This document shows positions 8,825-21,537 of a DNA stretch of 64,000 nt, in pieces. The DNA comes from Pseudomonadales bacterium (GTDB taxonomy: Bacteria; Patescibacteriota; Microgenomatia; UBA1400; PJMF01). The stretch is from positions 465,892-529,891 of the forward strand of contig JACKFW010000001.1 of the NCBI GenBank assembly GCA_020632265.1. The letters are read 5' to 3'. The notes beneath the pieces are model-generated. The model had not been told where the DNA came from and searched no databases. It was given only the letters and a program-made list of their open reading frames with translations. Position 1 is the stretch's first letter; the number at the start of each line of letters is the position of its first letter. The translations under genes and the position numbers were made by a program.

Positions 8825-8910
8825 GGAGGTGTCGCATAGTGGTCAATTGCACACGCCTGGAAAGCGTGATCCTTATGGATTCAAGGGTTCGAATCCCTTC
8901 ACCTCCGCCA
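8825..8910 (+). tRNA. tRNA-Ser (anticodon GGA)
   Basis: Acceptor GGAGGTG/CACCTCC, anticodon stem CACGC/GCGTG, loop CTGGAAA, long variable arm, T-arm AAGGGTTCGAATCCCTT and an encoded CCA. Its last 20 nt recur at 21791-21810. Confidence 0.75.
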
Positions 8911-10362
8911 TTTTTCTAAATCATGAGAATCATTAAGATTTTCAAGTGGTTTCCACAATTTTGTAAGTCTGGTATTGGTTATTTTTCCATCTTTAAAATC
9001 ACAGTTCCAAAGTACTGATTTTAATAAATCTCTTTTAACTTCATCATCTCCTTCTTCAAAAACTTTAGATAGCTGTACAGCGCTATTTTTTATTTCTTCA
9101 ACAAGTTCCAAAGTTTCTAGAGCCCCTTTGTTATTTTTTTGCTTAAGAAGTACAGAGAGCTGAGCAAGTTCATTTTCAAATTCAATCTTTCTTTCGTTAT
9201 AACGATCAAAAGAAATTTGTTCATCAATATAAATATTCTCAAGTCTTGTTAATTTTCTTTTAAGACCTGAAACTTGTTGTTTAATTGTGTCTTTGTTATC
9301 TTTTTTATTAGCATCCTCTTTTAATAAAGATTGTTTGTATAAATCAAATGATTTATTTGCTCTTTCTGGATCTAGCGTAAAACCTCCAAAGAAATCTTGA
9401 AACAAATCTGAAATATGTTTTTTATTCCAATAGGTTGTATGTTGGGAGCACTTTCCTTTTCCATTTGTGCATCTGTAATAAATATATTTTCCTTTAGCAA
9501 TTCCTGCTGTAACTTTACAACCACATTCAGCACAATTTAGAAAATCTCTAAAAACAAAATTAAGTTTCTGTTTTTTAGGTCTGCTTTTATTTTCAAATCT
9601 AGCTTGAACCTTATCGAACAAATCTTTAGAAATTAAAGGCTTGTGCTTGCCTTCATGGAGTTGTCCTTTTCTGTTAATCACTCCGTAATATTCAGGATTT
9701 ATTAGCTGTCTATATAAACTAGAAGTGCCAACTTTTTTACCACTTCTTGATCTATAACCTTCACTTGCCAATTTTTTAGCTAGAGTTTTAACCGAATGTT
9801 CACCACCAGAAAATAATTCAAACGCTCTTTTAATGAAAGGAGCTCTGATAGGATCTGGTTCAATTCCTTTTCCCGGCTGAATGTTTATGTAGCCGATTGG
9901 AACATAACTTGGATATTCTCCTTTTAATAGTTTGCTTTCATTCCCAGCTTTAACTTTTACTGATAGATCTCTTGAAAATTGAGATGCTAAAACAAAATCA
10001 AATCCCATGTAAAATAGTGAAGAAGCATCTTGAAAAACAGTGGTTAAAGTTCTAACTTCTTTGAGTAGTCCTGTTTCAATCATCTTAATTACGAAACCAG
10101 CATCTATTAAATTTCTAGCTAGTCTGTCAGTGTGTACCACCAAAATCGAATCTGCTTCTCCATTCTTGATTCTGTCCAACATGTTATAAAACAAAGGTCT
10201 ATTTTGATCTGTTTTAGCACTTTTTGATTCTTTGATAATATCAACAACTTCCAACTTCAAACTACTAGCTAAATCTAATAAAAGGCGTTGTTGAGTACCA
10301 AGAGATTGAGTTTGTCTAGAATCTTCTTCAGATGATTTTCTACAATAAATAAAATGTTTCAT
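8899..10362 (-). CDS. large serine recombinase (resolvase/invertase N-domain plus recombinase and zinc-ribbon domains)
   Basis: 487 aa with the N-terminal YCRKSSEEDSRQ catalytic-serine motif and ...VHTDRLARN. The C-terminal region has a Cys cluster (CAECGCK...YYRC). The 3' end overlaps the tRNA-Ser(GGA) 3' end by 12 bp. Confidence 0.8.
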   Translation of the reverse strand: MKHFIYCRKSSEEDSRQTQSLGTQQRLLLDLASSLKLEVVDIIKESKSAKTDQNRPLFYNMLDRIKNGEADSILVVHTDRLARNLIDAGFVIKMIETGLLKEVRTLTTVFQDASSLFYMGFDFVLASQFSRDLSVKVKAGNESKLLKGEYPSYVPIGYINIQPGKGIEPDPIRAPFIKRAFELFSGGEHSVKTLAKKLASEGYRSRSGKKVGTSSLYRQLINPEYYGVINRKGQLHEGKHKPLISKDLFDKVQARFENKSRPKKQKLNFVFRDFLNCAECGCKVTAGIAKGKYIYYRCTNGKGKCSQHTTYWNKKHISDLFQDFFGGFTLDPERANKSFDLYKQSLLKEDANKKDNKDTIKQQVSGLKRKLTRLENIYIDEQISFDRYNERKIEFENELAQLSVLLKQKNNKGALETLELVEEIKNSAVQLSKVFEEGDDEVKRDLLKSVLWNCDFKDGKITNTRLTKLWKPLENLNDSHDLEKWRR

Positions 10363-11237
10363 GATGAATCCTTAAGGGCAGGGAGATTTAAAGTATTATA
10401 CACACTATATTCGCAATCCCCATTTCTTTTTGTTTCAAATATATTTTTATAACTTGGTATTATTTCATTTAATCTTGTGAGAATCTTTTCTGCCTCATAT
10501 CCATATAAAGTAACAGGTTGTTTTAAATTTCTAGAACCAGAATATGCTCTTTTTCCATTGAGTCTCGGATCATCAACGCTTTTTGATAAGTACTTAGCCA
10601 TATATCCAGCTATCCTATCAAGAGTTTTTCTATTAATTTTAACAAAACCAAGCTTCCACCATTTTTCAAGTAATTTTTTAGGTATATAAGGCAAATTACA
10701 AGCTAAATGAAAATGAATAGCTCCTCGATTGTTTTTATCTTGAAATTCAATAACCCAAACATATTTTAAATTAGGATATTTATATTTTAGCAACCTTAAG
10801 AAGTTTTTTAAGTATGCTGTACACTCATCAACATTTGTAATATCTAATCCGCAATCATCTTTTAAGGTAAGAACTATTGATTTAAAAAATCCCTGAAAAT
10901 TAGTATTGATAATTCTTTTAACTTTGAAAGATCGTCTAGTTCCAGTTCTTTTTGAATATTCATCACTTCTATCTTTTTGAGATCCAAAATTATTTAAGTT
11001 TGTATGCGGGAGATTTACAACAATTGGATCTTGATAGATATACTTTTCAACAAAATCTCCTGAAACAATAATTTTTAAATTCGTAGCAAAGGGTTTTGGA
11101 ACATGAATATTGGCTGATATTCTTCGTTCTAGTTTGACGGTATTATCAAGTCTAGTAGTGTGCTCGGGCACACTAGGAAGAGCAAGACCTAAAGGTCTAG
11201 CACCAAGAATATCTTGAACATCATTTTTTAACAACAA
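10359..11237 (-). CDS. rolling-circle replication initiator, Rep_1 (pC194/pUB110-like) HUH family
   Basis: 292 aa with motif II GAIHFHLACNL (HUH) and motif III GYMAKYLSKSVDD (AKYxxK..D, active-site Tyr). Its start overlaps the recombinase start by 4 nt, suggesting an operon. Confidence 0.6.
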   Translation of the reverse strand: MLLKNDVQDILGARPLGLALPSVPEHTTRLDNTVKLERRISANIHVPKPFATNLKIIVSGDFVEKYIYQDPIVVNLPHTNLNNFGSQKDRSDEYSKRTGTRRSFKVKRIINTNFQGFFKSIVLTLKDDCGLDITNVDECTAYLKNFLRLLKYKYPNLKYVWVIEFQDKNNRGAIHFHLACNLPYIPKKLLEKWWKLGFVKINRKTLDRIAGYMAKYLSKSVDDPRLNGKRAYSGSRNLKQPVTLYGYEAEKILTRLNEIIPSYKNIFETKRNGDCEYSVYNTLNLPALKDSS

Positions 11238-11430
11238 TATTACTCCTTTCTTTTTGAAGGAGTGAATGACGATATAGCGCTCTACCTAAATAATATAAGG
11301 AACGATCAATTTCAAAATCAGAATTTTCTGGGGCAAGTATTTGTTGACTGGAATTTGTTTTAAGAGTTTTTTGTTTGTTAAGATCAACAGAAATTGCACC
11401 GCGCTTTAAGCGAGATGTATTTCTTTTCAT
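11221..11430 (-). CDS. small basic protein upstream of rep, hypothetical
   Basis: 69 aa, Lys/Arg-rich, translationally coupled to rep. Confidence 0.3.
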   Translation of the reverse strand: MKRNTSRLKRGAISVDLNKQKTLKTNSSQQILAPENSDFEIDRSLYYLGRALYRHSLLQKERSNIVVKK

Positions 11431-11540
11431 GTTTCATATTAGTCCATGAACGCAGACTCTTAATAATGAATATACAACATTTTTTTATAAACAAAAGAAT
11501 CAAAATGATTCAATCTGGGTTTTATTGAACAATAAATCCA

Positions 11541-11660
11541 GTGGTAAACCACGGGGAGGGGGAAACGATCCAGGGAGGTATCCGGCTTCGCTTCGCGAGC
11601 CTGCCTCCCTTCCATGCCCCTACGGGGCAACCAGGAAAGGAAAAAATCACATGCGAGCTA
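11541..11660. other. GC-rich highly structured element, candidate origin (dso/sso) or ncRNA of the integrated replicon
   Basis: ggggagggggaaacgatccagggaggtatccggcttcgcttcgcgagcctgcctcccttccatgcccctacgggg. A 7-bp stem agggagg/cctccct encloses a GGCT(t)CGC-TTC-GCG-AGCC hairpin, and there is a cccc-tac-gggg hairpin. Local GC is far above the surrounding DNA. Confidence 0.4.
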
Positions 11661-11758
11661 CGCTCGAAGTGATATAGAGGTAACTAACAAAAGTGAAATT
11701 TCAGAATTATGATAAAATTAAAACTGATATTTGAAATTATATAAAGAAATAAATGTGA

Positions 11759-12532
11759 ATGACAAAAATAAAAACAGAGACAGGAATATTGCCACACACT
11801 CTCTTAGTTCCAAATCCTGAAATAGAATCTTTATCAATTCATGAAAAAAACTTGCGTCAAAATTTTCCGAACTTTGAGAGAGTTTCTAATGATTACCTTG
11901 TTAATGAATTGAAAATGGGCAATCAATTTGCCGAAATAATGGATGAGCTGGGAAAAATGAAAAGAAGATTTGGCATTTGTGGAATTATTTCAGGAACAAG
12001 TTTGGCACTATTAACTAGCCCTGATTTTTATAATAATAGATTTAACTTTTCTCCAAAAGAATATAAAAGAATGTTTGATGAAAATATTAAAAAAGGTACA
12101 AAAAAACCTTTTGATTTATTTGCTGAACAATATCTTCTACAGGAGTTTTCCGTACCAGTACTACCTCCAATTATGTCAGCAGAAGGATTAAATAAAATAC
12201 TCTTTAATTTGAAAAGCAATCAGGGATTACATACTTGTGTTTTATGTGAATACGAGGAAGAAAAAGGAACACATACTCATTTTTTAGCTATTAAAAAAAT
12301 CGACCAAAAAAAACTTTTAGTTGTGGGTGACTTAAGCCCATTCGGTTTAAATTGTTGGGGTATTATAGTTCCAGTAGAAGATTATGCGGAGGCTTTAACA
12401 AAAGTAATTGGTGCGAGTTCAACAACAACTGTGAGTGATGCAATTATACAAACAAATATTAAATTTGGAGATGGATTGGATAATTCTAATATATTTGATA
12501 AAAATGCTTATATTTGGACTTTCGAAAACTAA
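11759..12532 (+). CDS. hypothetical protein (cassette 1), possible Cys/His peptidase-like
   Basis: 257 aa with conserved Cys (GICGIISG) and His (HTHFLAI) that could form a papain-like dyad. This is weak. Confidence 0.3.
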   Translation: MTKIKTETGILPHTLLVPNPEIESLSIHEKNLRQNFPNFERVSNDYLVNELKMGNQFAEIMDELGKMKRRFGICGIISGTSLALLTSPDFYNNRFNFSPKEYKRMFDENIKKGTKKPFDLFAEQYLLQEFSVPVLPPIMSAEGLNKILFNLKSNQGLHTCVLCEYEEEKGTHTHFLAIKKIDQKKLLVVGDLSPFGLNCWGIIVPVEDYAEALTKVIGASSTTTVSDAIIQTNIKFGDGLDNSNIFDKNAYIWTFEN

Positions 12533-12579
12533 TTTTATTGAAAATATAATGATTTATCAATATAAAGATTGCTTAAAAA

Positions 12580-12608
12580 AGTTCCAATTTCATCCCACAC
12601 TCTCCGCA
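12580..12608 (+). repeat. tRNA-Ser-3'-end-like cassette boundary repeat (variant B: AGTTCCAATTTCATCCCACnCTCTCCGCA)
   Basis: agttccaatttcatcccacactctccgca. It is nearly identical over 17 nt to the 3' end of tRNA-Ser(TGA), atccctcgctctccgca. Confidence 0.7.
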
Positions 12609-12611
12609 ATA

Positions 12612-13202
12612 TTAAAATAAATCTTTATACGCTACACTTCCCCAGATTGATTCCTGAGGAAATTCTGACTCTTTAATCTGTCTTACTGAAACACCATTAG
12701 TATCCATATGATCGAGTACAACACCACCTCCACTAGTTGCAACTTCTTCTAAAGAACTTACTATAACTATTTTTCCATTTGGGTTTATCTCATACATAGT
12801 TATAAATGTGTCTATATCGGTGGTCCACATTCGTTCTGGTTTTGGCTTATCTAGTGGATCAGTAATTCTATAAAGAACTACCAGTTTAGGATCTACACCT
12901 AACCTTTCTAACTCCTCAATTGGCAGTTGCTCCCCTTCTTCAAGGTCTTGTTGAGAAATTGAGGCACGATGTTCAATAGTTACCATGTGGAGTCCAGTCT
13001 CTTGGAGTTTGTGAACGATAATAGAAAAGTCATTTTGTTGCTTTACAAGATCAGCCACATTGACTCCAATTCTAGTTTCAATTATTTTAGCAAGTGATGG
13101 CATTCTTAAACCCTGAATTTCTGCGGCACCTTGGTCGACTAACCCTAATAAATTTTTTTTTCTAAATGTAGCATTAGTTGGTGATTCTGCAAAAAAAGTC
13201 AT
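12612..13202 (-). CDS. hypothetical protein (cassette 2)
   Basis: 196 aa with no recognisable motif. It is flanked on both sides by variant-B repeats. Confidence 0.4.
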   Translation of the reverse strand: MTFFAESPTNATFRKKNLLGLVDQGAAEIQGLRMPSLAKIIETRIGVNVADLVKQQNDFSIIVHKLQETGLHMVTIEHRASISQQDLEEGEQLPIEELERLGVDPKLVVLYRITDPLDKPKPERMWTTDIDTFITMYEINPNGKIVIVSSLEEVATSGGGVVLDHMDTNGVSVRQIKESEFPQESIWGSVAYKDLF

Positions 13203-13236
13203 AGTGAGATTGTATATTTTATGGCTAAATTAAAAA

Positions 13237-13330
13237 AGTTCCAATTTCATCCCACGCTCTCCGCATGTAGGGACTCCTGGCAGGAATTGTGTTAAAATTT
13301 GGATAGGTGTAGGGACTAGAGAACCTAAAC
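13237..13330 (+). repeat. full cassette junction unit (variant-B core plus promoter-like module)
   Basis: agttccaatttcatcccacgctctccgca then tgtagggactcctggcaggaattgtgttaaaatttggataggtgtagggactagagaacctaaac. It ends 10 bp before the next start codon. Confidence 0.7.
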
Positions 13331-13340
13331 ATATCTTATT

Positions 13341-14183
13341 ATGAAATTTTCAATTATTGTTCCAACTTATAACAGAGCATATATACTTCGAAATCTAATT
13401 AGATCAGTCTTAAACCAAACTTATAATGATTGGGAGTTACTAATAGTTGATGATGGTTCTACTGATTCCACTAAAGAAGTTGTGAAAAAAATTAGTGATA
13501 AAAGGATTATTTTCCTTGAACAAGAAAATCAAGGTCCTTCTGCTGCCAGAAATTATGCTTTAAGTAAATCTACTGGTAAATGGATTGCTTATATTGATAG
13601 TGATAATGAGTTATTGTCGAATTATCTTGATGTTTTATTAATCTTTATTCAAAAAAATCCGGAAGCATTGTTTAGTATTACTAAAGGTATTAGAACATTA
13701 GAACTATTTGAAAATGATCAGCTGGTCGACATTATTGATGATTCTGATAATTATCCTAAAACTGTTTCCGTTGAGGATGTCTATACAAGAAAAGTTAAGT
13801 TTGACATTAATGGATTCGCTCATTCAAAAAAAATATACAACGATGATTATCAGTGGAATGAAGATTTGTCCTTAATGGAAGATTGGGATTTTTTCATGCA
13901 GTTTGCTGATAAATACAAAGATGGACTTGTTTACATTAACATTCCAGTTTTTCACTATCACCAAAGATTTGGAACAGATGGTCTCGTATCAAATGCTAGT
14001 TATAAAGATTGGGCTAAAGCCTTTGAAACAATTTATCAAAGACATAAAAATTCAAAATATATTAAAAATCAAGAATGGTATCCACAAAGAGTTGAAAAAT
14101 ATATACAATTAGCAGTACAGGAAAAAAAAGGAGAAGCAAAACCTGCCTATCTTAAGTATTTCCCAAACTTTGTTTCAAGCTAG
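13341..14183 (+). CDS. family 2 glycosyltransferase (cassette 3)
   Basis: 280 aa with the N-terminal FSIIVPTYNRAYIL...LIVDDGSTD GT2 signature. Confidence 0.75.
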   Translation: MKFSIIVPTYNRAYILRNLIRSVLNQTYNDWELLIVDDGSTDSTKEVVKKISDKRIIFLEQENQGPSAARNYALSKSTGKWIAYIDSDNELLSNYLDVLLIFIQKNPEALFSITKGIRTLELFENDQLVDIIDDSDNYPKTVSVEDVYTRKVKFDINGFAHSKKIYNDDYQWNEDLSLMEDWDFFMQFADKYKDGLVYINIPVFHYHQRFGTDGLVSNASYKDWAKAFETIYQRHKNSKYIKNQEWYPQRVEKYIQLAVQEKKGEAKPAYLKYFPNFVSS

Positions 14184-14214
14184 GATTAAAAAGGTTATTT
14201 TGATTTGAATAGTA

Positions 14215-14308
14215 GGTTCTAACTTGGTACACACACCTCCGCAAGTCAGAACTCCAGGCAAAGAATGTGATAAAATTAGGATAGGTGTAGGGACAGTAGA
14301 ACCTACAT
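14215..14308 (+). repeat. full cassette junction unit (variant-A core GGTTCTAACTTGGTACACACACCTCCGCA plus promoter-like module)
   Basis: ggttctaacttggtacacacacctccgca then agtcagaactccaggcaaagaatgtgataaaattaggataggtgtagggacagtagaacctaca. The core resembles the tRNA-Ser(GGA) 3' end ggttcgaatcccttcacctccgcca. Confidence 0.7.
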
Positions 14309-14331
14309 TAAATTATCAATAGAATATACAT

Positions 14332-15186
14332 ATGTCAGTAGAAGGCTATCGACCAGAAAGAATTCCAACAAGAAGAATAGAAGGTTCTGAAATTAGTACT
14401 TTCAGAGAAATAACTATCGATGAAACTGATCCTGTTGATCTATTTGATATTAGCTGGCCAAATTATAATGCCGGAATTAAGTTTAAAAAAGTTGGATCTT
14501 ATTCTAAGAAACGCTATGGTGTTGAAGAAAGATACCCACTTTATGAAGCAATTGCAATTTTTAAAGATTTAAAGAATAAAGTTCATGAAATAAATTTAAC
14601 AAAGACAACGAGTAGAAAAAGATGCTTATTTACAGGATCAAATTCTGGTTTTTTTATGCATGATCCTGCTTGGGTAGGCATTGATTCGGATTATTATGTT
14701 GTTGGAATTAATCCACGGGAATTACAAGCAGATATTAGAAGACAGATAGCAACTTATCACGAACTTGGACATGCAGAAATTGTGGATCATGGATATGATA
14801 CTCAATTGCTTAAAGGATCTACAACTATGAAAGATAAAGATTTACCTGCTATTTCTATGATTAAAGCTTATGCTAAGAAAGTAAAAGATGCTTTAATTGG
14901 TGCAAGGTATGATATAGAAAAAATAAAAAACATTACTATTACACCACAGATATTATTTGCTCTAATGAATGATGATACTGAAATTGATTCAAGCATAAGA
15001 TTGTTTCATGAAAGAAATGCTTGGGCTGGTGGAGATAAACTTATAAGAAAGCATAAATTTCCAATTGGTTTTGAAAAGAAGAGCTCTTTAAGAGAATATA
15101 GTCAATTTTGTTTAGAAACATATGCAAGATATTATAGTGAAGCAAAATTTACAAAAGGTATGAGAGATCGGAAAAATAGGTTCTAA
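14332..15186 (+). CDS. hypothetical protein with HExxH zinc-metallopeptidase-like motif (cassette 4)
   Basis: 284 aa containing IATYHELGHAEIVDHGYD (HExxH). The TAA stop lies inside the TTCTAAC of the following repeat. Confidence 0.4.
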   Translation: MSVEGYRPERIPTRRIEGSEISTFREITIDETDPVDLFDISWPNYNAGIKFKKVGSYSKKRYGVEERYPLYEAIAIFKDLKNKVHEINLTKTTSRKRCLFTGSNSGFFMHDPAWVGIDSDYYVVGINPRELQADIRRQIATYHELGHAEIVDHGYDTQLLKGSTTMKDKDLPAISMIKAYAKKVKDALIGARYDIEKIKNITITPQILFALMNDDTEIDSSIRLFHERNAWAGGDKLIRKHKFPIGFEKKSSLREYSQFCLETYARYYSEAKFTKGMRDRKNRF

Positions 15187-15208
15187 CTTTGTACACACAC
15201 CTCCGCCA
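15179..15208 (+). repeat. variant-A core repeat overlapping the upstream stop codon
   Basis: ggttctaactttgtacacacacctccgcca, followed by an A-run/T-run hairpin aaaaaaaataacctttttgggtatttttttt. Confidence 0.7.
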
Positions 15209-15229
15209 TAAAAAAAATAACCTTTTTGG

Positions 15230-15400
15230 GTATTTTTTTTATGACGAAATGGCAAAAGGCATGGAGAAGATTGTTCACACCAGCACCTTCAGCACCTACT
15301 GAATGCATGTTCCCACAATTGCCTTACTTCGTATATCCTTGCTAGCTTCCTAGCGCAGCATTAAGTTGCAAACTTCAGAATATCTTGGACTACTCATATA
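15230..15400. repeat. internal copy of the tRNA-Ser(GGA) att-flank region
   Basis: caaaaggcatggagaagattgttcacaccagcacc...gcatgt... is homologous to 21690-21760 (tgcaaaaagattgttcgcaccagtaag...tagtgcatgtgag), which directly precedes the terminal att copy. Confidence 0.45.
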
Positions 15401-15411
15401 AAATAATTTTC

Positions 15412-16335
15412 TTACGCCCATACTAGTGGATGGTCAGAATCCTTCTTTCTCAGAATTGTTGAAAATAGTTTTTTTCCTTTGTTGGGACCAATTTCCACTT
15501 GTAAAATTCTGTTAAGATGAAAATCAGTTAATGCTCTTTCATAAGCAATATCAAAAGATGGCTTAGTTTCATAATTCATAAGAGAACTCTCATTTCCAAT
15601 GGGTGATGGTTCTCTTGATGAGAAAGAAGAATCAATAAAAATACCGTTTTGTGATAAAAGCTCAAAAATGCGTGGTACATGAAATTCTGGGATGTTACTA
15701 TGAACTAAAGACATTCTACTGTGAATCAAGTTAACATTCCCAATAAGTGGTATCACTCCACTCTCAGTTTTAATCTTTAATTGTCTAAATGATTTCACAT
15801 CTTTTGTATCATTGCCAGTTAGTTCTGCTTCCACATATTCAACTAAATTATTTTCTAAAGCATATATTATTGGAGACATATCTAAACCAACATTCGCAAG
15901 TCTAGATTCAGCTGCTAGATGTATATCAAAATTTTGCTCAATATTTGAAATGATAAGCTTTACTTTTCCTTCATTAATCTCATTTTCCAATATTCTTGCA
16001 ATTCTGCAAAAACTCAAACCCAGTCCTCCTCCAAAATCTAAAACTACAATAGGACCACCTCCATCTTTTTTCTCAAGTAGTTGAAGGATCATTTGTTCGA
16101 GACTTTTTTCTATACCTAATAGACTTTCTTTTGTTTCTTCTGTTCTATAAATACTTTCACTCACTCCCATGAGAGTTGATGTACCAAAATCTGCGCTGAA
16201 AACAGGCTTGCTGTAGTCACCAATAGCAAATGACCAAGCTTCACCTGATTCTTCCTTGCCCATTGAACGATATCTTTTATTTTCTAAATGTTGTCTTTTT
16301 AATCTTTTATGAAAATTTCTAAATTCTTGGTTCAT
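15412..16335 (-). CDS. class I SAM-dependent methyltransferase-like protein (cassette 5)
   Basis: 307 aa with motif I VVLDFGGGLGLSF and a downstream acidic residue pattern typical of the Rossmann-fold MTase. Confidence 0.5.
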   Translation of the reverse strand: MNQEFRNFHKRLKRQHLENKRYRSMGKEESGEAWSFAIGDYSKPVFSADFGTSTLMGVSESIYRTEETKESLLGIEKSLEQMILQLLEKKDGGGPIVVLDFGGGLGLSFCRIARILENEINEGKVKLIISNIEQNFDIHLAAESRLANVGLDMSPIIYALENNLVEYVEAELTGNDTKDVKSFRQLKIKTESGVIPLIGNVNLIHSRMSLVHSNIPEFHVPRIFELLSQNGIFIDSSFSSREPSPIGNESSLMNYETKPSFDIAYERALTDFHLNRILQVEIGPNKGKKLFSTILRKKDSDHPLVWA

Positions 16336-16475
16336 ATATATTATATATTACACAACTATATCAAGAAATGATAGGATAATTGGTATATATTGGTCTCATA
16401 TATAGATGGTTTTTTTGCAAGCAATATTTTTTCCAAAGTAAGTCCTCAAATTGGAGAAGTTATTTCTTTTAAAAA

Positions 16476-16569
16476 AGTTCCAATTTCATCCCATGCCCCC
16501 CGCAAGTCAGAACTCCAGGTTAGGAATGTGATAAAATTGGGACAGGTATAAGGAATTTAGAACCTAAAA
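16476..16569 (+). repeat. full cassette junction unit (variant-B core plus promoter-like module)
   Basis: agttccaatttcatcccatgccccccgca then agtcagaactccaggttaggaatgtgataaaattgggacaggtataaggaatttagaacctaaaat. Confidence 0.7.
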
Positions 16570-16573
16570 TACA

Positions 16574-17269
16574 ATGAACACAACTAATTTAACAATTAAT
16601 CTTCAAAAAATAATTAAAATTCTTTCTAAAAACAAACATTTAGAATTTTCTCATACCCAATTAGGAAAAATTTCGGAAAATGAAATTAATACTCCAATTG
16701 GAGACGCAATATCACTTTTTTCAAATAAAAAATGTAAACTTTCAAATGATTTGATTGATCTAGAGCTATTAGAAAAATTGGTTAGCCAGTTAACAAAAAA
16801 TAGCTCAATAATTCGTCCAAGTCATATAGGTTTTTGCTATAAAGTTTTATCAGTAAATGATGAGAAGATCAGAATATCTAATTTAGCAAAAGAATCAGAT
16901 TTAGATTTATACCAAGAGGAATCAAATGATGATGGTCTATGGCTTTTTGTTGGAGATGCAAATAAATGGGAAGAGCCAGTTATTGAATTAATTCCAATAG
17001 AATCCACAAATGATAAATATGTAGATTATTGGTTGCCTCACATTCAAATAGATATTGATACAAATTTAACTGGAGAAGAAATAGATAAAATTGTTAAATC
17101 TATTTTTGGAAACAAGATAATTCCATTTTTTATCAAAATTGATGGTGCAACTTATATTATTAGAAATAGGTTAGGTGTTATTGATGGAGTGAATATTTTT
17201 CTTGACTTAGCAACAAATTCTAGAAAAGTTAAATACTTAAGGCAAGAGTTGTGGAAGAAGATTGTATAA
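16574..17269 (+). CDS. hypothetical protein (cassette 6)
   Basis: 231 aa with no motif recognised. Confidence 0.4.
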   Translation: MNTTNLTINLQKIIKILSKNKHLEFSHTQLGKISENEINTPIGDAISLFSNKKCKLSNDLIDLELLEKLVSQLTKNSSIIRPSHIGFCYKVLSVNDEKIRISNLAKESDLDLYQEESNDDGLWLFVGDANKWEEPVIELIPIESTNDKYVDYWLPHIQIDIDTNLTGEEIDKIVKSIFGNKIIPFFIKIDGATYIIRNRLGVIDGVNIFLDLATNSRKVKYLRQELWKKIV

Positions 17270-17274
17270 AATAG

Positions 17275-17303
17275 GTTCTAACTTGGTACACACACCTCCG
17301 CAA
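17275..17303 (+). repeat. variant-A core repeat
   Basis: ggttctaacttggtacacacacctccgca, 5 bp after the stop of the upstream gene. Confidence 0.7.
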
Positions 17304-17372
17304 GTGATAACAGATCATTTTTTGTGATATACTAAAATTCAATTATTATTATCTACATAATAGGAACATTTT

Positions 17373-17765
17373 ATGAACACCTATGATCAATACAGTCCAA
17401 ATCAGGAAGAAGTAGAAGCATGGACTAACAAAGTTATATCATTAGATATTTTATCAGATGAACAAAAGGAAGAAATAAAAAGACTCAGAGAAAAAAATGG
17501 TTGGGAAGATTTACCTCAGGAATTAGCAGAGATTATTTATAAATTTATTCCTTATTCATTTGATTTATTATCCTTTTCTCGTTTCGTTAATTTATATTTA
17601 GATGCTAATGATCAAGAAAGAGATAAAGCTAAAGAATTAATTCTAAGTTTAGATAATGTGAAAATGACACGAAAACAAGCATTCGATTTTGTAATTTTCA
17701 CTCTAGATGGATCAATTAGTGAGGCTGTAGAAAAAATCAGGTCAGGACAGCCTATATATAGCTAA
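17373..17765 (+). CDS. hypothetical protein (cassette 7)
   Basis: 130 aa, acidic, with no motif. Confidence 0.4.
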   Translation: MNTYDQYSPNQEEVEAWTNKVISLDILSDEQKEEIKRLREKNGWEDLPQELAEIIYKFIPYSFDLLSFSRFVNLYLDANDQERDKAKELILSLDNVKMTRKQAFDFVIFTLDGSISEAVEKIRSGQPIYS

Positions 17766-17976
17766 GTTAAAAAATATTTTATTATATTGCTTTTATAATA
17801 ATTAGTTTATCAATAATTTATACTATCACTCAAGACAAATTTTTTTGCATATATGGGCTGTGGAGGACTACATTAATAGGCCTAGTAAATAAATGTATTA
17901 ACGGATTTGTTTGTGCGTCTAATCAGATTCCAAACTTTTCTGGATGTGGTGGTACTTGTAAACCCAAATAATAATA

Positions 17977-18006
17977 GGCTCTAAATTGGTACACACAGCT
18001 CCACCA
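17977..18006 (+). repeat. degenerate variant-A core repeat
   Basis: ggctctaaattggtacacacagctccacca. Confidence 0.5.
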
Positions 18007-18096
18007 AACAGGATAATACCCCCTTTATCAAAGTCGATATTAGTTTAATATATGTTGCTTAGTTTATGGTTTAATGTGTCGTTTTAATTTCAAGCT

Positions 18097-18558
18097 ATGA
18101 GTGATACTATTATAAACATGAGTCAATTTTTTCTTGCTTATTGGTGGTTATTGCTTTTAGTAATAATTATTATAGCAATTTTCACTAGAAATTTAATTAA
18201 ATTTCTAACTACAGTTATAATATTTATTTTTATATTTATCGTTTTTTGGCAAGTAATTATAAAATCAGGATTTACTCAATCAAATCAGTGTTTCACAAAT
18301 GACTTGAGTTCATCAATCTCTATTAATGAGCGTGCAAAACTTATGAATCCTGGCATAGAGAGAAATCAATATATATGTTCAGAAAGTGTAAAAAGTTTTA
18401 TTTTACTTGAAAACTGTTTAAATAATTCAAAGTTTTCAAACAAATTAAGCTTTACGATTTTTTCCAATCTACCTTGGTTTAAAAATACTATGAATGATGT
18501 TGTAACAACTCATAATCAAAATTGTCCTAATGATCGAATAGACACTCTAACTTATTAA
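18097..18558 (+). CDS. hypothetical membrane-anchored protein (cassette 8)
   Basis: 153 aa with two N-terminal TM helices. Confidence 0.4.
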   Translation: MSDTIINMSQFFLAYWWLLLLVIIIIAIFTRNLIKFLTTVIIFIFIFIVFWQVIIKSGFTQSNQCFTNDLSSSISINERAKLMNPGIERNQYICSESVKSFILLENCLNNSKFSNKLSFTIFSNLPWFKNTMNDVVTTHNQNCPNDRIDTLTY

Positions 18559-18598
18559 AAGCTTATATATTTTATTATTAAACAGTTATCTCAAACCA

Positions 18599-18689
18599 GG
18601 TTCTAACTTGGTACACACCTCCACATGTCAGAACTCTAGGTTAGAAATGTGCTAAAATTGGGATAGGTGTAGAGAATTTGATATCTAAT
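18599..18689 (+). repeat. full cassette junction unit (variant-A core plus promoter-like module)
   Basis: ggttctaacttggtacacacctccaca then tgtcagaactctaggttagaaatgtgctaaaattgggataggtgtagagaatttgatatctaattagaacctaat. Confidence 0.7.
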
Positions 18690-18743
18690 TAGAACCTAAT
18701 ATATATTAAATTGCATTAATAATTTTGTATTGTATTATAAGCA

Positions 18744-19013
18744 ATGTTGTATAAAAAAAAAGTTGTTATGTCACAAAAAATATCAAAATCATCATTACAG
18801 ACAAAAATGATTAAGATAATTGTTAAAAAATATGCTTTGGGTTATATAAATTCAATGAAGGCACGTAACCTAATGGCAGAGGTGTTATCAAAGCTTTCTC
18901 ATTCTACAATTGGACAACTTGATTATCACCAAGTTCTATATTTAACAAGAATAGATGCCATTTTTAGTGAGTTAAAAGATTTCTATTTATCAAAAAATAC
19001 AAAAGGGAATTGA
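18744..19013 (+). CDS. hypothetical small protein (cassette 9, first gene)
   Basis: 89 aa. Its stop overlaps the start of the next ORF. Confidence 0.35.
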   Translation: MLYKKKVVMSQKISKSSLQTKMIKIIVKKYALGYINSMKARNLMAEVLSKLSHSTIGQLDYHQVLYLTRIDAIFSELKDFYLSKNTKGN

Positions 19014-20647
19014 TGATGCATGAAAATTGGTCCATCCCGCCAAATGAAAAAATGACCTTCGGAGAAAGAGGAAGACGAATTAAAAGAAAAGTTATTAAAA
19101 CTTTAAATAGGTTTCAAACACTTTTTTGTATAAGAGATAAAACAGTTGCAGAGATTGCTAAAGCAGAAGATGAAAGTTCTAAAAATATTGATCCCATTAA
19201 TCAATTTGCTGTTACTATGATAAGTGCAGAACCAACTGATTGGATTAATATATTGACTAGTTTGAATGATGATGAATCAGTTGATCTAGATAAAACAATA
19301 GTTGCTCCAGAAAAAACTACTCATGAAAAAGTTCCTTTTGGTTATTTACAAATAGTAACTAAATTAGATCAGGAACAAGTTGAAGATGATGATTCTTTCC
19401 CAAGAATTGAAGGTAGTTTAGAACCTCTTTCAACAAAATATGCTGTTCAAGTTGCAGATTCTTCAACAACAAAGATAACAGATAATTTATCACATCATCG
19501 AATGATGATTGCTACACCACGTTCAGGGAGACAACTAAACGAACTACTTGATGCAGAAATTATATATGGTGGCAGAGCTATTTCTACAATAATGATTAAA
19601 GGTACTGGAGTTCCCAATATAGTCAGAGAAACTTGGGTTGATTATGCAGGGCAAGATGACCCATTTTTTTTCACAGAAAAACAGACTGGTGGTGAAACGG
19701 CAACAGGCTTGATTGCTAAAAATGAAATGATGGGACCAGCACTCAAAGAAGATCAAGTAGAAGATGCGCGAAATTCATTAGTTCTTCATAATGCTGGAGT
19801 AAAGGTAAGAATTCCTTTAGGTGGTTGGGAAGTTAAATCATTTGTTATTGCTGGAGAACAAAAAGATATTGCTTGGTTTAAAGAGCATGGATATGATGGA
19901 GAAGTGTTATATCAATCTGCTTGGGGAATGACATGTCCTTTGCGCATTGAAGATATCAATGATATGTTATCAGAAGCTGTTTATGTTAATAATAATCCAA
20001 AACTACTTGATGATTTACTCAAAGAATTACTTGTTTTTGCACAAAAAGATAAATCAAAACCCTATGTAGATCTCTCTAAAAAATGGAAAGATATTTTAGA
20101 TTTAGATAATTTTGAACTTGATGAAGATACCCGAGTACAGCTCTGGACAGATTTTGGCATTGCTCTCTGTGAAACTATGGGCAGTAATTTTGATTCAATG
20201 CATAAAGCTAATTTAAAGCATGGTAATGCTCATGATCAAAATATTTCATTTTTTGGTGAACTATGTGATAACTCAACTGTAAGTGAGGGTCTACTTGTGT
20301 CTGGAGGTGATCAAAAAATTGGTGATGATATTGATAGTTTTGCTGATGGCATGAGAAGATTCAATGATCGGGTATTAGCAATGAGTGGTGTAAATACCTT
20401 TGATGAGTTTGAATTAGTACAGGAAGCACTTGATAAATATAAACAGGCAGTTAGAAAAAACTGGATATCTTATGAAGAATGGGTGAAGACTAGTACTGGG
20501 TTGCTTGTTTCTGATAATGACAACAGAAATAGAGCTGAAAATGAATTAAATGAATATCAGAATGAAGTAGACGAGTATGATATAAGCAGACAAATACTCA
20601 GAAAAACTGGTGGAGAAAGACGATTTCGAATATATGGTGAAGATTAG
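19010..20647 (+). CDS. hypothetical protein (cassette 9, second gene)
   Basis: 545 aa, acidic, soluble, with no motif recognised. Confidence 0.45.
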   Translation: MMMHENWSIPPNEKMTFGERGRRIKRKVIKTLNRFQTLFCIRDKTVAEIAKAEDESSKNIDPINQFAVTMISAEPTDWINILTSLNDDESVDLDKTIVAPEKTTHEKVPFGYLQIVTKLDQEQVEDDDSFPRIEGSLEPLSTKYAVQVADSSTTKITDNLSHHRMMIATPRSGRQLNELLDAEIIYGGRAISTIMIKGTGVPNIVRETWVDYAGQDDPFFFTEKQTGGETATGLIAKNEMMGPALKEDQVEDARNSLVLHNAGVKVRIPLGGWEVKSFVIAGEQKDIAWFKEHGYDGEVLYQSAWGMTCPLRIEDINDMLSEAVYVNNNPKLLDDLLKELLVFAQKDKSKPYVDLSKKWKDILDLDNFELDEDTRVQLWTDFGIALCETMGSNFDSMHKANLKHGNAHDQNISFFGELCDNSTVSEGLLVSGGDQKIGDDIDSFADGMRRFNDRVLAMSGVNTFDEFELVQEALDKYKQAVRKNWISYEEWVKTSTGLLVSDNDNRNRAENELNEYQNEVDEYDISRQILRKTGGERRFRIYGED

Positions 20648-20754
20648 TGTATAAATGTATAAAATGAATGTTTTTATGGTTTAATACAGTTGAAGCATTA
20701 GAGCTTTATTTAGCTCAAGAAAGAAGTATTATCAGTGATCGACTAAGTAAAACA

Positions 20755-20783
20755 GGTTCTAACTTGGTACACACACCTCCGCA
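20755..20783 (+). repeat. variant-A core repeat
   Basis: ggttctaacttggtacacacacctccgca. The listed 61-aa ORF 20668..20853 spans it and is probably spurious. Confidence 0.7.
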
Positions 20784-20871
20784 TATTAAGAGACATATTA
20801 GTGCTTTAGAATTAAATTTGATGTTTCTTTTTAACAATTGTAAGAACGCATAGTTTTTCTATACTAGATAA

Positions 20872-21537
20872 ATGGATAAAGAAACAAAAACACACACTGA
20901 ATTTGGTATAAGATCTCAAGAAAATAAAAGGCTGATAAACCAGCTTCAGCTTCAGAAACTTAGTCCTGATATAGATTTTTTTCCCAAAGTCGTAGGCTTT
21001 AAAGATTTTGATAATTCTCAGGGATATGAAGTTGAACAAATTGTTGGACAAACATTTCAGGAACTCATGAGTAGTACTAGTAGCTCTGATTTTATTAGAC
21101 TTCTTCTTGTTGCAACTGAGCAGCAACAAAAACTTTTCAAAAATTATGGCATTTTAGTAAAAGATAGAAATAAAGATAATTTTATTTTTGGAGTAAAAGA
21201 TGAAAATTCAAATCTAAAAGTATATCAAGTAGATTTAGAATCTATTTATGATTCTGTTACAGATGCCGACTTTCTTGATATAAATGAACACTTATTATCA
21301 AGATCTAGTAACCCAATTAAAATTAGTAATGAAAATAAAACTGGCATAGAAATTGCAGATATATGTGATTCACTTCAAGAAATATTTATTGAATATTTAA
21401 AAAGAAAAAAAAGAACACAAATTGAGCAACAAGTTTATGTTAAATGGAATAAAAGACTTGGGACTATTAGGAGGATAAAAAACTTTGATAAACTAACTAT
21501 ACTTTTTGAAGATTTATTGAGAATTTTTGGAAATTAA
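20872..21537 (+). CDS. hypothetical protein (cassette 10)
   Basis: 221 aa with no motif. Confidence 0.4.
   Translation: MDKETKTHTEFGIRSQENKRLINQLQLQKLSPDIDFFPKVVGFKDFDNSQGYEVEQIVGQTFQELMSSTSSSDFIRLLLVATEQQQKLFKNYGILVKDRNKDNFIFGVKDENSNLKVYQVDLESIYDSVTDADFLDINEHLLSRSSNPIKISNENKTGIEIADICDSLQEIFIEYLKRKKRTQIEQQVYVKWNKRLGTIRRIKNFDKLTILFEDLLRIFGN

What the first reader, a model, noticed from the sequence alone, without database searches (positions are those of the whole stretch)
8825..11430. tRNA-Ser(GGA)-integrated replicon: serine recombinase, Rep_1 HUH initiator and small ORF in one operon overlapping the tRNA 3' end
The recombinase gene ends 12 bp inside the tRNA. A perfect 20-bp direct repeat of the tRNA 3' end lies 12.9 kb away at 21791-21810, giving an attL/attR pair. 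Pairing a pC194-type rolling-circle Rep (HFH and AKYLSK motifs) with a large serine recombinase and no structural phage genes suggests an integrative plasmid-like element as the engine of the array.
Basis: partly seen in the sequence, partly recalled or inferred. Interest (0 to 1): 0.6.

Follow-up and report, generated by a model that had tools for sequence, protein, structure and literature searches.

The report
Integrated rolling-circle replicon at tRNA-Ser
A small plasmid-like mobile element, carrying a serine integrase and a rolling-circle replication gene, is inserted at the end of a serine tRNA gene; it heads a row of about twelve single-gene cassettes separated by short sequences that imitate the tRNA's end.

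Summary
tRNA-Ser(GGA) lies at 8825-8910. A 487-aa large serine recombinase (LSR) gene ends 12 bp inside it on the opposite strand. Upstream, in one overlapping operon, are a 292-aa HUH Rep and a 69-aa ORF. An exact 21-bp copy of the tRNA end lies 12.9 kb away.

One correction: the Rep belongs to PF23343 (REP_ORF2-G2P, weakly RepSA), not Rep_1.

The same module sits at tRNA-Ser(CGA), (GCT) and (UGA) in close relatives. More distant Rep-LSR pairs abut other tRNAs in 14 contigs, mostly candidate-phyla-radiation (CPR) genomes. In every case the LSR reading frame stops inside the antisense tRNA. This is an integrative rolling-circle replicon, comparable to AICEs, phiRSM and SCC elements.

The 12.9-kb repeat pair probably bounds a composite. 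The conserved core is about 3.7 kb, ending at a conserved tRNA-like site (12578-12607). Beyond it lie roughly 12 one-gene cassettes, punctuated by three families of tRNA-Ser-end mimics that all end in CTCCGC. Similar arrays follow two other tRNA-Ser genes in the window.

The LSR is the only intact recombinase found in the window, so it is the plausible engine of the array. That is not shown: I found no circular junction and no empty site.

The parts
8825..8910 (+). tRNA-Ser(GGA), the integration target. Its 3' end forms the proximal junction.
   Evidence: ARAGORN; Rfam tRNA, 59.2 bits.
8891..8911 (+). Proximal copy of the 21-bp direct repeat GAATCCCTTCACCTCCGCCAT, running from the T-loop to CCA plus one T.
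   Evidence: Read directly from the sequence.
8899..10362 (-). Large serine recombinase, 487 aa. R8 and S10 lie in the N-terminal motif YCRKSS. The stop codon is inside the antisense tRNA.
   Evidence: Pfam Resolvase + Recombinase + Zn_ribbon_recom. PHROG 95 integrase, 7e-78. dN/dS of 0.09-0.25 against four relatives, gap-free over 487 codons.
10359..11237 (-). HUH rolling-circle initiator, 292 aa, with motifs LTL, HFH and YMAKY. It overlaps the LSR start by 4 nt.
   Evidence: PF23343, 3.6e-19. PHROG 3584/3419, replication initiation. Alignment A1. Relatives occur on 1.6-7 kb plasmids and on small circular viral contigs.
11221..11430 (-). Conserved 69-aa ORF, first gene of the operon. Function unknown; candidate regulator or directionality factor.
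   Evidence: No family in Pfam, PHROGs or NCBIfam. tblastn 60-78% identity at the same position in L003, L004, L006 and L007.
11486..11505 (-). Conserved motif TTTTGATNCTTTTRTTTATA, about 60 nt upstream of the small ORF. Candidate nick region or promoter element.
   Evidence: Present in the window, L003, L004, L006 and L007. The functional assignment is inference.
11646..11673 (-). Conserved hairpin ATCAC-N18-GTGAT within a G+C-rich leader (about 11540-11680). Candidate origin or operator.
   Evidence: The stem ends are kept in four relatives while the interior varies. No Rfam match.
11736..11765 (-). Best sigma-70-like promoter match in the region (TTGTCA-18-TATAAT), facing the operon.
   Evidence: 11 of 12 positions. 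This is a consensus match only.
11759..12532 (+). First cargo ORF, 257 aa, no known family.
12578..12607 (+). First type A tRNA-like site (AAAGTTCCAATTTCATCCCACACTCTCCGC). Candidate distal end of a 3.7-kb core element spanning 8909-12607.
   Evidence: The same site lies 3.0-3.2 kb beyond the small ORF in L003, L004 and L006 at 93-97% identity to the query site. L006 and L003 are 100% identical over 31 nt where their genes are about 76% identical.
12608..21631 (+). Array of nine cassettes, 620-2158 bp each, with one or two ORFs. Each ends in a type A site (13235-13264, 16474-16503, 21603-21631) or a type B site (14214-14242, 15178-15206, 17273-17301, 17976-18004, 18598-18624, 20754-20782). Four begin with a promoter-like R1 unit (13265-13329, 14243-14307, 16504-16568, 18625-18700).
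   Evidence: the repeat finder families D2, D3, D5, D6 and D9. Junction listing. blastn-short. ORFs.
21632..21790 (+). Non-coding terminal unit: an A/T hairpin, a conserved stretch (CTGCYTAGTGCATGTGAG ... GCGAATCGT), and then the tRNA-end copy.
   Evidence: Homologous units at window 55523-55682 (-) and L003 5047-5203 (-).
21791..21811 (+). Distal copy of the 21-bp repeat.
21812..25760 (+). Continuation of the island. It holds an IS3-type transposase remnant (22019-22561), two membrane-protein ORFs, a degenerate type A site (about 24908-24937), a cassette ending in type A (25604-25633), and a unit ending in a decayed tRNA-Ser(CGA)-type end (about 25740-25760).

Best explanation
The operon at 8899-11430 and its leader form the autonomous core of an integrative, plasmid-like rolling-circle replicon. 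The core consists of a small ORF, an HUH Rep and a large serine recombinase (LSR).

The LSR inserted the element at the extreme 3' end of tRNA-Ser(GGA). The crossover lies at or next to ...CTCCGC|CA. The attachment site on the element overlaps the last codons of the LSR gene itself. As a result the tRNA stays intact and the LSR frame runs into antisense tRNA sequence.

After excision the circle is presumably copied by Rep-initiated rolling-circle replication, starting from the conserved leader.

The element sits at the tRNA-proximal end of an island of about 17 kb (8.9-25.8 kb). The island is made of one-gene cassettes, each ending in a tRNA-Ser-end mimic (type A, B or C, or a tRNA-identical end). 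I think these mimics are secondary substrates of the same LSR. On that view cassettes and the core element enter at the tRNA and push older ones outward, and left and right half-sites are reshuffled.

Shown: gene identities, junctions, conservation, tRNA targeting across relatives, site families and their combinations.
Inferred: which enzyme acts on the cassette sites, the exact crossover, replication of the excised form, and the role of the 69-aa ORF.

Sub-probabilities:
- Integrated LSR + Rep element: about 0.85.
- LSR is also the enzyme that built the array: about 0.4.
For: Gene identity:
- Searches identify the LSR and the Rep.
- Rep relatives (27-38% identity) are the Rep genes of 1.6-7 kb cryptic plasmids, Spiroplasma plectroviruses and small ssDNA viruses.
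- 18 IMG/VR contigs of 4.1-9.1 kb with Rep relatives carry terminal repeats, so they are circular.

Mobility and target:
- The trio recurs with LSR identity of 92, 73, 72 and 67% at tRNA-Ser(cga) (L003, L040), tRNA-Ser(tga) (L006) and tRNA-Ser(gct) (L004).
- L003 is syntenic with window 57.9-59.1 kb. There the window has other cassettes but no trio.
- In 15 instances on 14 contigs, a Rep-LSR pair ends with the LSR stop 12-114 nt inside a convergent tRNA. The tRNAs are Ser, Val, Gly, Asp, Arg, Glu, Gln and Trp. Hosts are mostly Patescibacteria MAGs.

The LSR is under purifying selection.

Array link:
- All junctions share C(T/C)CCGC and diverge immediately after it.
- Left halves (four tRNA-Ser ends, types A, B, C and two 'arm+tRNA core' types) occur with right halves (LSR end, R1, R2 hairpin unit, R3) in many combinations.
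- Type A is 93-100% conserved between genomes whose genes are about 76% identical, and it accompanies every close relative of the module.
- Arrays follow three tRNA-Ser genes in the window but not tRNA-Arg.
- Pfam scans of most ORFs of 110 aa or more found no other intact recombinase in the 64 kb. The 2191-aa ORF at 47542-54117 and a few smaller ORFs were not scanned.
Against: - No circular junction and no empty tRNA-Ser(GGA) site was found. Contigs from four public samples show the same integrated order, or simply break at the repeats.
- No recombination directionality factor is identified.
- The junction sites show no dyad symmetry above shuffled controls. They therefore do not look like textbook LSR sites by that test.
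- More distant Rep-LSR elements have neither long tRNA repeats nor arrays of tRNA-like sites. The array is not a general property of the module.
- A recombinase encoded outside the window could be responsible for the cassettes.
Confidence: 0.7

Rival explanations
1. The trio is only the latest arrival. The island grew by serial, independent integrations of different tRNA-targeting elements whose integrases have since been lost, as in tycheposon-seeded islands. The tRNA-like sites are inherited att remnants, not substrates of this LSR.
For: - Two kinds of 'arm + exact tRNA core' repeats (17-21 bp, starting at the T-loop AATCCC) look like classical T-loop-type att remnants. They sit at 21792, 55539(-), 57757(-), 54394(-) and L003 5063(-).
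- An IS remnant lies inside the island.
- The cassette order is stable across samples.
- The published model has newcomers pushing older elements inward, with partial tRNAs scattered through the island (10.1101/2020.12.28.424599).
Against: - Types A, B and C are not decaying copies of the resident tRNAs. They are uniform within each type and are conserved across genomes more strongly than coding sequence.
- No integrase fragments were seen in the arrays.
- Cassettes are 0.6-2.2 kb, too small to have been autonomous elements.
Confidence: 0.3
2. The element is a degraded integrated filamentous or other ssDNA prophage of the phiRSM kind.
For: - The Rep family is named after plectrovirus ORF2 and inovirus gpII.
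- About 95 relatives lie on 4-12 kb IMG/VR contigs.
- phiRSM integrates with a serine recombinase at the 3' end of tRNA-Ser(UCG) (PMC4471427).
Against: - No morphogenesis ATPase, coat or other phage family was detected in the cargo ORFs.
- The cargo genes face away from the rep operon and are separated by recombination-type sites.
- Equally close Rep relatives sit on tiny plasmids.
- The phiRSM Int is a resolvase-type enzyme, not an LSR.
Confidence: 0.1
3. The HUH Rep, not the LSR, moves the cassettes. It would nick single-stranded hairpin sites at CTCCGC| and rejoin them, in the manner of IS91, Helitrons or IS200/IS605.
For: - The sites contain T-arm-like hairpins followed by a fixed end.
- B+R1 units are about 100-nt imperfect palindromes, like integron attC sites.
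- Rep is always linked to the LSR.
Against: - The conserved leader motif and hairpin next to rep do not resemble the cassette sites.
- tRNA adjacency tracks the LSR, not Rep. Rep-only loci show no consistent tRNA junction.
- Rep relatives are replication proteins of plasmids and phages.
Confidence: 0.08
4. The repeats are intergenic terminator-promoter modules or MITE-like palindromes. They are unrelated to site-specific recombination and merely resemble tRNA ends.
For: - R1 carries a conserved extended -10 (TGnTAAAAT) with a variable n.
- R2-type units start with long hairpins followed by T runs.
- No dyad symmetry typical of recombinase sites.
Against: - In the window they occur only downstream of tRNA-Ser genes.
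- They share the tRNA-Ser-specific end CTCCGC.
- Left and right halves recombine exactly at that point.
Confidence: 0.1

Closest known systems
AICEs of actinomycetes (pSAM2 type; also Mycobacterium AICEs with serine recombinases at tRNA-Leu)
   Same: - Integrated at a tRNA 3' end.
- Encodes a site-specific recombinase plus a rolling-circle initiator. Here there is a weak RepSA match (27.9 bits, below the 34-bit cut-off).
- Replicates after excision.
- PMC3218068 notes serine-recombinase AICEs at tRNA-Leu.
   Different: - No FtsK-type Tra gene or other conjugation gene was seen.
- The host is not an actinomycete.
- The Rep falls in PF23343 rather than RepSA.
- The element is 3.7-5.7 kb, against 9-24 kb for AICEs (the AICE size range is from my own knowledge).
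- It is followed by a cassette array.
Filamentous phages phiRSM1/phiRSM3 of Ralstonia
   Same: [quoted passage not shown] Its attP is 13 nt of the tRNA-Ser(UCG) end (PMC4471427).
   Different: - phiRSM Int is a small resolvase/invertase-type enzyme. Here it is a 487-aa LSR with recombinase and zinc-ribbon domains.
- No virion genes are present here.
SCC elements (SCCmec, Ccr recombinases)
   Same: - LSR-driven insertion at the 3' end of a conserved gene.
- Composite tandem arrays separated by short direct repeats.
- The best NCBIfam matches of the LSR are CcrB, XisF and CcrA.
- SCC elements also carry replication genes (from my own knowledge).
   Different: - The scores are far below the Ccr cut-offs (68 against 900 bits).
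- The target is a tRNA, not rlmH.
- The replication protein is an HUH Rep, not a helicase/primase.
- The cassettes are single genes.
Tycheposon-seeded genomic islands (Prochlorococcus)
   Same: - tRNA genes act as island seeds.
- Replicative integrative elements.
- Newcomers push older ones inward.
- Partial tRNAs are scattered in the islands.
- 27 of 937 elements have an LSR.
   Different: - The tycheposon hallmark is a tyrosine recombinase with primase/helicase replication.
- Here the punctuating sites are uniform tRNA mimics, not plain partial tRNAs.
- Units are about 1 kb with one gene.
Integrons
   Same: - The recombinase is divergent from a co-oriented array of cassettes of about 1 kb with one ORF each.
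- Each cassette ends in a 30-100 nt imperfectly palindromic site.
- Insertion is at one primary site.
   Different: - No IntI tyrosine recombinase was found.
- The sites imitate a tRNA end and do not fit the attC R''/R' consensus.
- Many cassettes bring their own promoter.
- The primary site is a tRNA gene.
Integrative mobilizable elements of Firmicutes with RCR-type Rep/relaxase and serine integrases
   Same: Small integrated elements that pair a serine or tyrosine integrase with an HUH protein, often at tRNA or ribosomal-protein gene ends. This rests on my own knowledge of PMC5704250; the paper was listed but not read.
   Different: There the HUH protein serves as a relaxase for hijacked conjugation. 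No conjugation context is evident here.

Membership tests
Large serine recombinases | N-terminal resolvase catalytic domain followed by the recombinase domain and a zinc beta-ribbon domain | tested here: met
   PF00239 54.9 bits, PF07508 55.5 bits and PF13408 33.1 bits, all above their cut-offs. PHROG 95, 7e-78.
Large serine recombinases | Catalytic serine (about position 10) preceded by a conserved arginine | tested here: met
   The N-terminus MKHFIYCRKSSEED has R8 and S10/S11. The assignment is by position, from general knowledge of the family.
Large serine recombinases | attP x attB recombination with a 2-bp crossover between sites of imperfect dyad symmetry | tested here: inconclusive
   The junctions share CTCCGC, and distant relatives have no long repeats, which fits a short crossover. 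However, no dyad symmetry above shuffles was found.
HUH rolling-circle initiators, superfamily I | Motif 1 (uTuT), motif 2 (HUH) and motif 3 with two tyrosines (YxxxY) | tested here: met
   T122-L-T124, H175-F-H177 and Y212-MAK-Y216, invariant or nearly so in 18 sequences.
Rep_1 (PF01446, pC194/pUB110 type) | Match to the Rep_1 profile | tested here: not met
   No hit at E<=10. Only PF23343 and a sub-threshold RepSA match were found.
REP_ORF2-G2P (PF23343) | Match above the gathering score | tested here: met
   69.3 bits against a cut-off of 27.8, covering profile positions 5-98 of 99.
AICE (pSAM2-like) | int + rep + FtsK-like tra modules, integrated at a tRNA | tested here: not met
   int, rep and tRNA integration are present. 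No FtsK/SpoIIIE or other transfer domain was found in any ORF of the island.
Inovirus / plectrovirus prophage | Morphogenesis ATPase (pI/Zot) and coat genes co-oriented with rep | tested here: not met
   No such Pfam or PHROG family in the island ORFs. Very divergent small coat genes cannot be excluded.
Integron | IntI-type tyrosine recombinase next to attI and a cassette array | tested here: not met
   No tyrosine recombinase among the ORFs of the 64-kb window that were scanned. Most ORFs of 110 aa or more were covered, but not the 2191-aa ORF at 47542-54117 or a few smaller ones.
Integron | attC sites: imperfect palindromes with RYYYAAC ... GTTRRRY ends | tested here: inconclusive
   B+R1 units are about 100-nt imperfect palindromes with TTCTAAC ... 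GTAGAAC ends. This is close to the consensus but does not fit it, and halves recombine at CTCCGC, not at the right-hand box.
SCC elements | Ccr-type recombinase (NCBIfam equivalog) | tested here: not met
   CcrB 67.9 bits against a cut-off of 900; CcrA 46.2 against 700.
Tycheposons | Deep-branching tyrosine recombinase hallmark; tRNA or partial-tRNA flanks | tested here: not met
   tRNA and partial-tRNA flanks are present, but the recombinase is an LSR and the replication module is an HUH Rep.

The most novel reading that the evidence does not exclude
In this CPR-like lineage the tRNA-Ser genes may act as the primary sites of an integron-like gene-capture system run by a large serine recombinase. 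One-gene cassettes, many with their own promoter, would end in mimics of the tRNA-Ser acceptor/T-arm. They would be inserted, excised and shuffled at CTCCGC| by the LSR. That LSR is carried on a small rolling-circle replicon, which is itself the autonomous 'cassette'. Because the crossover lies inside the LSR gene, the enzyme's C-terminal tail would differ between the integrated and free states. That difference could feed into directionality control.
Probability: 0.3. Interest if true: 0.8.

Novelty: new variant of a known kind. Interest (0 to 1): 0.55.

Why it matters
Few mobile elements of candidate-phyla-radiation (CPR) bacteria have been described (from my own knowledge). Integration into tRNA genes by serine recombinases is described as rare (PMC3218068).

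This work defines a recurrent module: an HUH Rep followed by an LSR whose reading frame ends inside the antisense tRNA. It was found at eight tRNA amino-acid specificities (Ser, Val, Gly, Asp, Arg, Glu, Gln, Trp) on 14 contigs.

That gives three things:
- a handle for finding integrated plasmids in these genomes;
- a set of natural LSR/tRNA attachment-site pairs;
- a candidate explanation for how tRNA-Ser-linked islands of accessory genes are built in a streamlined genome. In relatives these islands carry restriction-modification and Thoeris-type TIR genes.

If the cassette sites are LSR substrates, this would be a gene-cassette system analogous to integrons but built on different chemistry.

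Tried and rejected
1. Rep_1/pC194 membership. Rejected: no profile hit even at E<=10.

2. LSR-style site geometry. By eye, the GTTCNAA-to-CCGC distance is 22 nt in the tRNAs and type C and 27 nt in types A and B, which recalls the 5-bp attB/attP offset of LSR sites. An ungapped dyad-symmetry test gave scores equal to shuffled controls. I keep the length difference only as an observation.

3. Circular form or empty site.
- Exact-protein look-ups of the LSR, the flanking NUDIX gene and two cassette proteins returned only the integrated arrangement, or contigs that break at the repeats.
- Types A and B are absent from IMG/VR.

4. Generalising the array. Fourteen Rep-LSR-tRNA sites in relatives were searched for tRNA-end repeats or mimics (ungapped, up to 6 mismatches). 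Beyond the 17-bp repeat in L003, one weak hit (L025) was the only candidate.

5. Known RNA families for the G+C-rich leader and the terminal units. None found. The four-sequence alignment fold gave only one conserved hairpin with little covariation.

6. Defence or phage annotation of the cargo. Nothing in PADLOC, PHROGs or NCBIfam.

7. Solved structures. Only the catalytic domain of the LSR matched; Rep matched nothing.

8. Organism identity. Accession searches in the literature returned nothing. The CPR assignment rests only on the relatives' record titles.

9. A first python repeat scan timed out. It was replaced by blastn-short.


Full report
**1. What is in the sequence**

ARAGORN and Rfam agree on tRNA-Ser(gga) at 8825-8910 on the + strand. 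Three minus-strand ORFs follow: 8899-10362 (487 aa), 10359-11237 (292 aa) and 11221-11430 (69 aa). They overlap head to tail.

The first ORF ends 12 bp inside the tRNA. Its final codons TGG CGG AGG TGA are the antisense of the acceptor end.

Pfam identifies the first ORF as a large serine recombinase (LSR), with Resolvase, Recombinase and Zn_ribbon_recom all above threshold. The second matches PF23343 REP_ORF2-G2P at 3.6e-19, plus a sub-threshold RepSA hit. The third matches nothing.

They fall on the invariant HUH and YxxKY columns of an 18-sequence alignment. The Rep is therefore a superfamily-I HUH initiator, but not of the pC194 profile family.

The direct repeat is exact and 21 bp long (8891-8911 and 21791-21811). 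It is the only such copy within 16 kb, against none in shuffles.

**2. What the Rep and LSR are related to**

Rep homologues are rare: 26 clusters in 5.8 billion proteins.

In annotated collections its relatives are 27-38% identical. They are the Rep genes of 1.6-7 kb cryptic plasmids of Bacillus, Brevibacillus and Clostridium, of Spiroplasma plectroviruses, and of small ssDNA viruses. In IMG/VR they sit on 4-12 kb contigs. Eighteen of those contigs have terminal repeats, meaning they are circular, and none of the 18 carries an LSR.

PHROGs call the Rep a rolling-circle initiator and the LSR an integrase. The LSR's nearest NCBIfam models are CcrB, XisF and CcrA, all far below their cut-offs.

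**3. Evidence that the module is a mobile, tRNA-targeting element**

Exact and near relatives of the trio were recovered with their neighbourhoods. My own tblastn, ARAGORN and blastn runs on these loci show the same order: small ORF, then Rep, then LSR.

| Locus | LSR identity | tRNA reached |
|---|---|---|
| L003 / L039 (FLOH01000084.1) | 92% | tRNA-Ser(cga) |
| L040 | 73% | tRNA-Ser(cga) |
| L006 | 72% | tRNA-Ser(tga) |
| L004 | 67% | tRNA-Ser(gct) |
| L046 (partial LSR) | 70% | tRNA-Ser(gga) |

L003 is syntenic with window 57.9-59.1 kb (tRNA-Ser cga, tRNA-Arg gcg, tRNA-Ser tga). At that site the window has other cassettes and no trio. This is a presence/absence difference at an orthologous site.

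A scan of one genome per species found 32 loci encoding a Rep relative. Counting those and the viral contigs, there are 15 instances on 14 contigs in which the Rep is followed by an LSR whose ORF stops 12-114 nt inside a convergent tRNA. The tRNAs are Ser, Val, Gly, Asp, Arg, Glu, Gln and Trp. The record titles are mostly Patescibacteria: WWE3, Saccharibacteria, Pacebacteria, Gottesmanbacteria. There are also Gammaproteobacteria and an Acidobacteriota MAG. Two loci with sequence beyond the LSR had no detectable tRNA (L008, L024).

The LSR is gap-free over 487 codons, with dN/dS of 0.09-0.25 against four relatives. It is a functional gene.

**4. Where the element ends**

Window and L003 align only from the tRNA junction to window 11673. 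That covers the LSR, the Rep, the small ORF and a G+C-rich leader, about 2.8 kb at 83% identity. The cargo beyond differs.

The leader holds a hairpin, ATCAC-N18-GTGAT (11646-11673), kept in four relatives. It also holds a conserved motif, TTTTGATNCTTTTRTTTATA (11486-11505). The best promoter-like match in the region (11765-11736, minus strand) faces the operon. No Rfam family matches. I read the leader as promoter plus origin, which is inference. The TTTGAT core recalls the CTTGATA nick site of phiX174/pC194-type origins, a point from my own knowledge.

A 30-nt site, type A (AAAGTTCCAATTTCATCCCAYGCTCYCCGC), lies beyond the small ORF at these distances: 1.2 kb in the window (12578-12607), 3.0 kb in L003, 3.2 kb in L004 and 3.1 kb in L006. 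The copies in the relatives are 93-97% identical to the query site. Between L006 and L003 it is 100% identical over 31 nt, while their shared genes are 76-81% identical and their Rep genes do not align at all. It is absent from about 120 more distant loci.

This makes type A the best candidate for the distal end of a 3.7-5.7 kb core element, a normal size for a rolling-circle replicon.

That unit consists of a hairpin, a conserved arm and an exact tRNA core, and it follows another type A site. Long tRNA repeats are not a family trait: 11 of the 15 sites tested, all in more distant relatives, have none of 12 nt or more within about 10-12 kb. That fits a serine recombinase needing only a short crossover.

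The island also continues past 21811, with further sites at about 24.9 and 25.6 kb and a decayed tRNA-Ser(CGA)-type end at about 25.75 kb. The 12.9-kb pair is therefore real but most likely bounds a composite.

**5. The array**

Between 12608 and 21631 there are nine units of 620-2158 bp, each with one or two ORFs. Seven have the ORF pointing away from the tRNA. Each ends in type A or in type B (AGGTTCTAACTTGGTACACACACCTCCGC).

A third type, C (GGGTTCCAGACCCACATGCTCCGC), punctuates the array downstream of tRNA-Ser(cga) (57876 down to 54377, minus strand). A C-like and two A-like sites follow tRNA-Ser(tga) (59.8-62.0 kb). tRNA-Arg has none.

All left halves look like a T-arm plus acceptor strand and end in C(T/C)CCGC, the end shared by all four tRNA-Ser genes. 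The sequence diverges immediately after that point.

Left halves are combined with several right halves:
- the LSR 3' end;
- R1, a 65-nt unit with a conserved TGnTAAAAT extended -10 and an inverted copy of the left half;
- R2, a hairpin unit ending in a tRNA core;
- R3.

That pattern is what recombination at or near CTCCGC| would leave.

Cargo is mostly unknown. It includes a GT2 glycosyltransferase and a methyltransferase-like protein, with no defence or phage hits. In L003 and L006 the cargo next to the trio is a Bsp6I-type restriction-modification pair, and in L003 also a ThsB TIR protein.

Pfam scans of most ORFs of 110 aa or more found no other recombinase, apart from an IS3-type rve fragment. 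The 2191-aa ORF at 47542-54117 and a few smaller ORFs were not scanned.

**6. Mechanism and its limits**

Best reading: the LSR integrates the replicon at the tRNA-Ser acceptor end. The element-borne site overlaps the LSR stop region, so the tRNA is kept whole. Five of six occupied sites read CCGC-CA, whereas the three other tRNA-Ser genes in the window (cga, tga, gct) and its tRNA-Arg lack an encoded CCA. Rep then replicates the excised circle.

The tRNA-end mimics are plausibly secondary LSR substrates that let cassettes accumulate behind the tRNA.

Against over-reading:
- No circular junction or empty site was recovered. Four samples show the same order.
- The junction sites show no dyad symmetry above shuffled controls.
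- Arrays are confined to the tRNA-Ser clade.
- A recombinase outside the window cannot be excluded.

The rivals are serial accretion of unrelated elements, a decayed ssDNA prophage, Rep-driven single-strand transposition, and terminator/promoter palindromes. They are scored in the rival-explanations section.

**7. Comparison with known systems**

[quoted passage not shown] They cite phiRSM1 at the tRNA-Ser 3' end and Mycobacterium AICEs at tRNA-Leu (PMC3218068).
- phiRSM Int is a resolvase-type enzyme whose attP is 13 nt of tRNA-Ser(UCG) (PMC4471427).
- Tycheposon islands show the 'newcomer pushes older elements inward' pattern with partial tRNAs, and 27 of 937 elements carry an LSR.

The present element works like these and like SCC elements. 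It fails the defining tests for AICEs (no Tra), inoviruses (no morphogenesis genes), integrons (no IntI), SCC (no Ccr-type recombinase) and tycheposons (no tyrosine recombinase).

I found no paper describing Rep-LSR elements in CPR bacteria or tRNA-mimic cassette arrays. The library is incomplete, so this is not proof of novelty.

**8. Verdict**

It is a new variant of a known kind, namely integrative rolling-circle replicons with serine recombinases at tRNA genes. Two unusual traits stand out. The LSR frame ends inside the antisense tRNA across many relatives. And in this lineage there are integron-like arrays punctuated by tRNA-Ser-end mimics. Interest 0.55.

Noticed in passing
window 54377-57876 (minus strand) and 59088-62040: Two further cassette arrays lie downstream of tRNA-Ser(cga) and tRNA-Ser(tga), with no recombinase of their own. 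The cassettes encode a PhzF-like protein, a uridine-kinase-like protein, a GDSL hydrolase and unknowns. They are separated by type C, A-like and C-like sites. One 53-bp 'empty' unit (R3 + type C) is present in tandem at 56174-56287.
   Followed up: partly
window 54377-54528 and 57740-57891: A 152-nt unit is repeated at 95% identity. It has a long A/T hairpin followed by T's, about 80 nt, and then an exact or near-exact 17-nt copy of the tRNA-Ser(cga) end. One copy directly follows the tRNA itself, like a solo attL+attR footprint. A related decayed copy lies at 25634-25760 in the GGA island.
   Followed up: partly
window 55523-55579 (minus strand): An 'arm + tRNA-Ser(GGA) core' like the one at 21740-21811 sits inside the tRNA-Ser(CGA) island, joined to an R1 unit. 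This suggests exchange between islands at different tRNA-Ser genes.
   Followed up: no
L046 1-10451 compared with window 8158-8910 and 27762-33040: In a more distant relative, the block tRNA-Ser(gct)-NUDIX-tRNA-Ser(gga) is inverted relative to the flanking host genes. Those genes (AdoHcyase, PfkB, Maf) lie beyond the gct-side island there, but beyond the gga-side island here. This is what recombination between the two inverted tRNA-Ser ends would produce.
   Followed up: partly
14 contigs (L003, L004, L017, L019, L020, L022, L023, L025, L027, L028, L030, L038, L048, window): The LSR ORF always terminates inside antisense tRNA sequence, overlapping it by 12-114 nt. In L004 it reads across the whole tRNA. 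The enzyme's C-terminal tail must therefore differ between the integrated and excised states.
   Followed up: partly
L003 10109-10882 compared with L006 3341-4075: Between two elements that share the LSR, the leader, the restriction-modification cargo and the type A site at 76-100% nucleotide identity, the Rep genes do not align. Their proteins are 76% and 40% identical to the window Rep. This indicates a module swap within the operon.
   Followed up: no
window 8908, 8158, 57876, 59087, 58074: The occupied tRNA-Ser(gga) has an encoded CCA. The other three tRNA-Ser genes and tRNA-Arg do not (CCGC followed by A or G). Four of the five occupied sites in relatives also read CCGC-CA.
   Followed up: partly
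window 22019-22561 (minus strand): A broken IS3-family transposase (rve and HTH_21 fragments in two overlapping frames) lies immediately outside the distal 21-bp repeat.
   Followed up: partly
window 25916-26995 (minus strand); tandem repeats 25965-26459: A protein with bacterial TSP3 repeats. Its 69-nt periodic DNA repeats are repeat finder family D1.
   Followed up: no
window 47542-54117 (minus strand): A 2191-aa ORF adjoins the far end of the tRNA-Ser(cga) island. It was not analysed.
   Followed up: no
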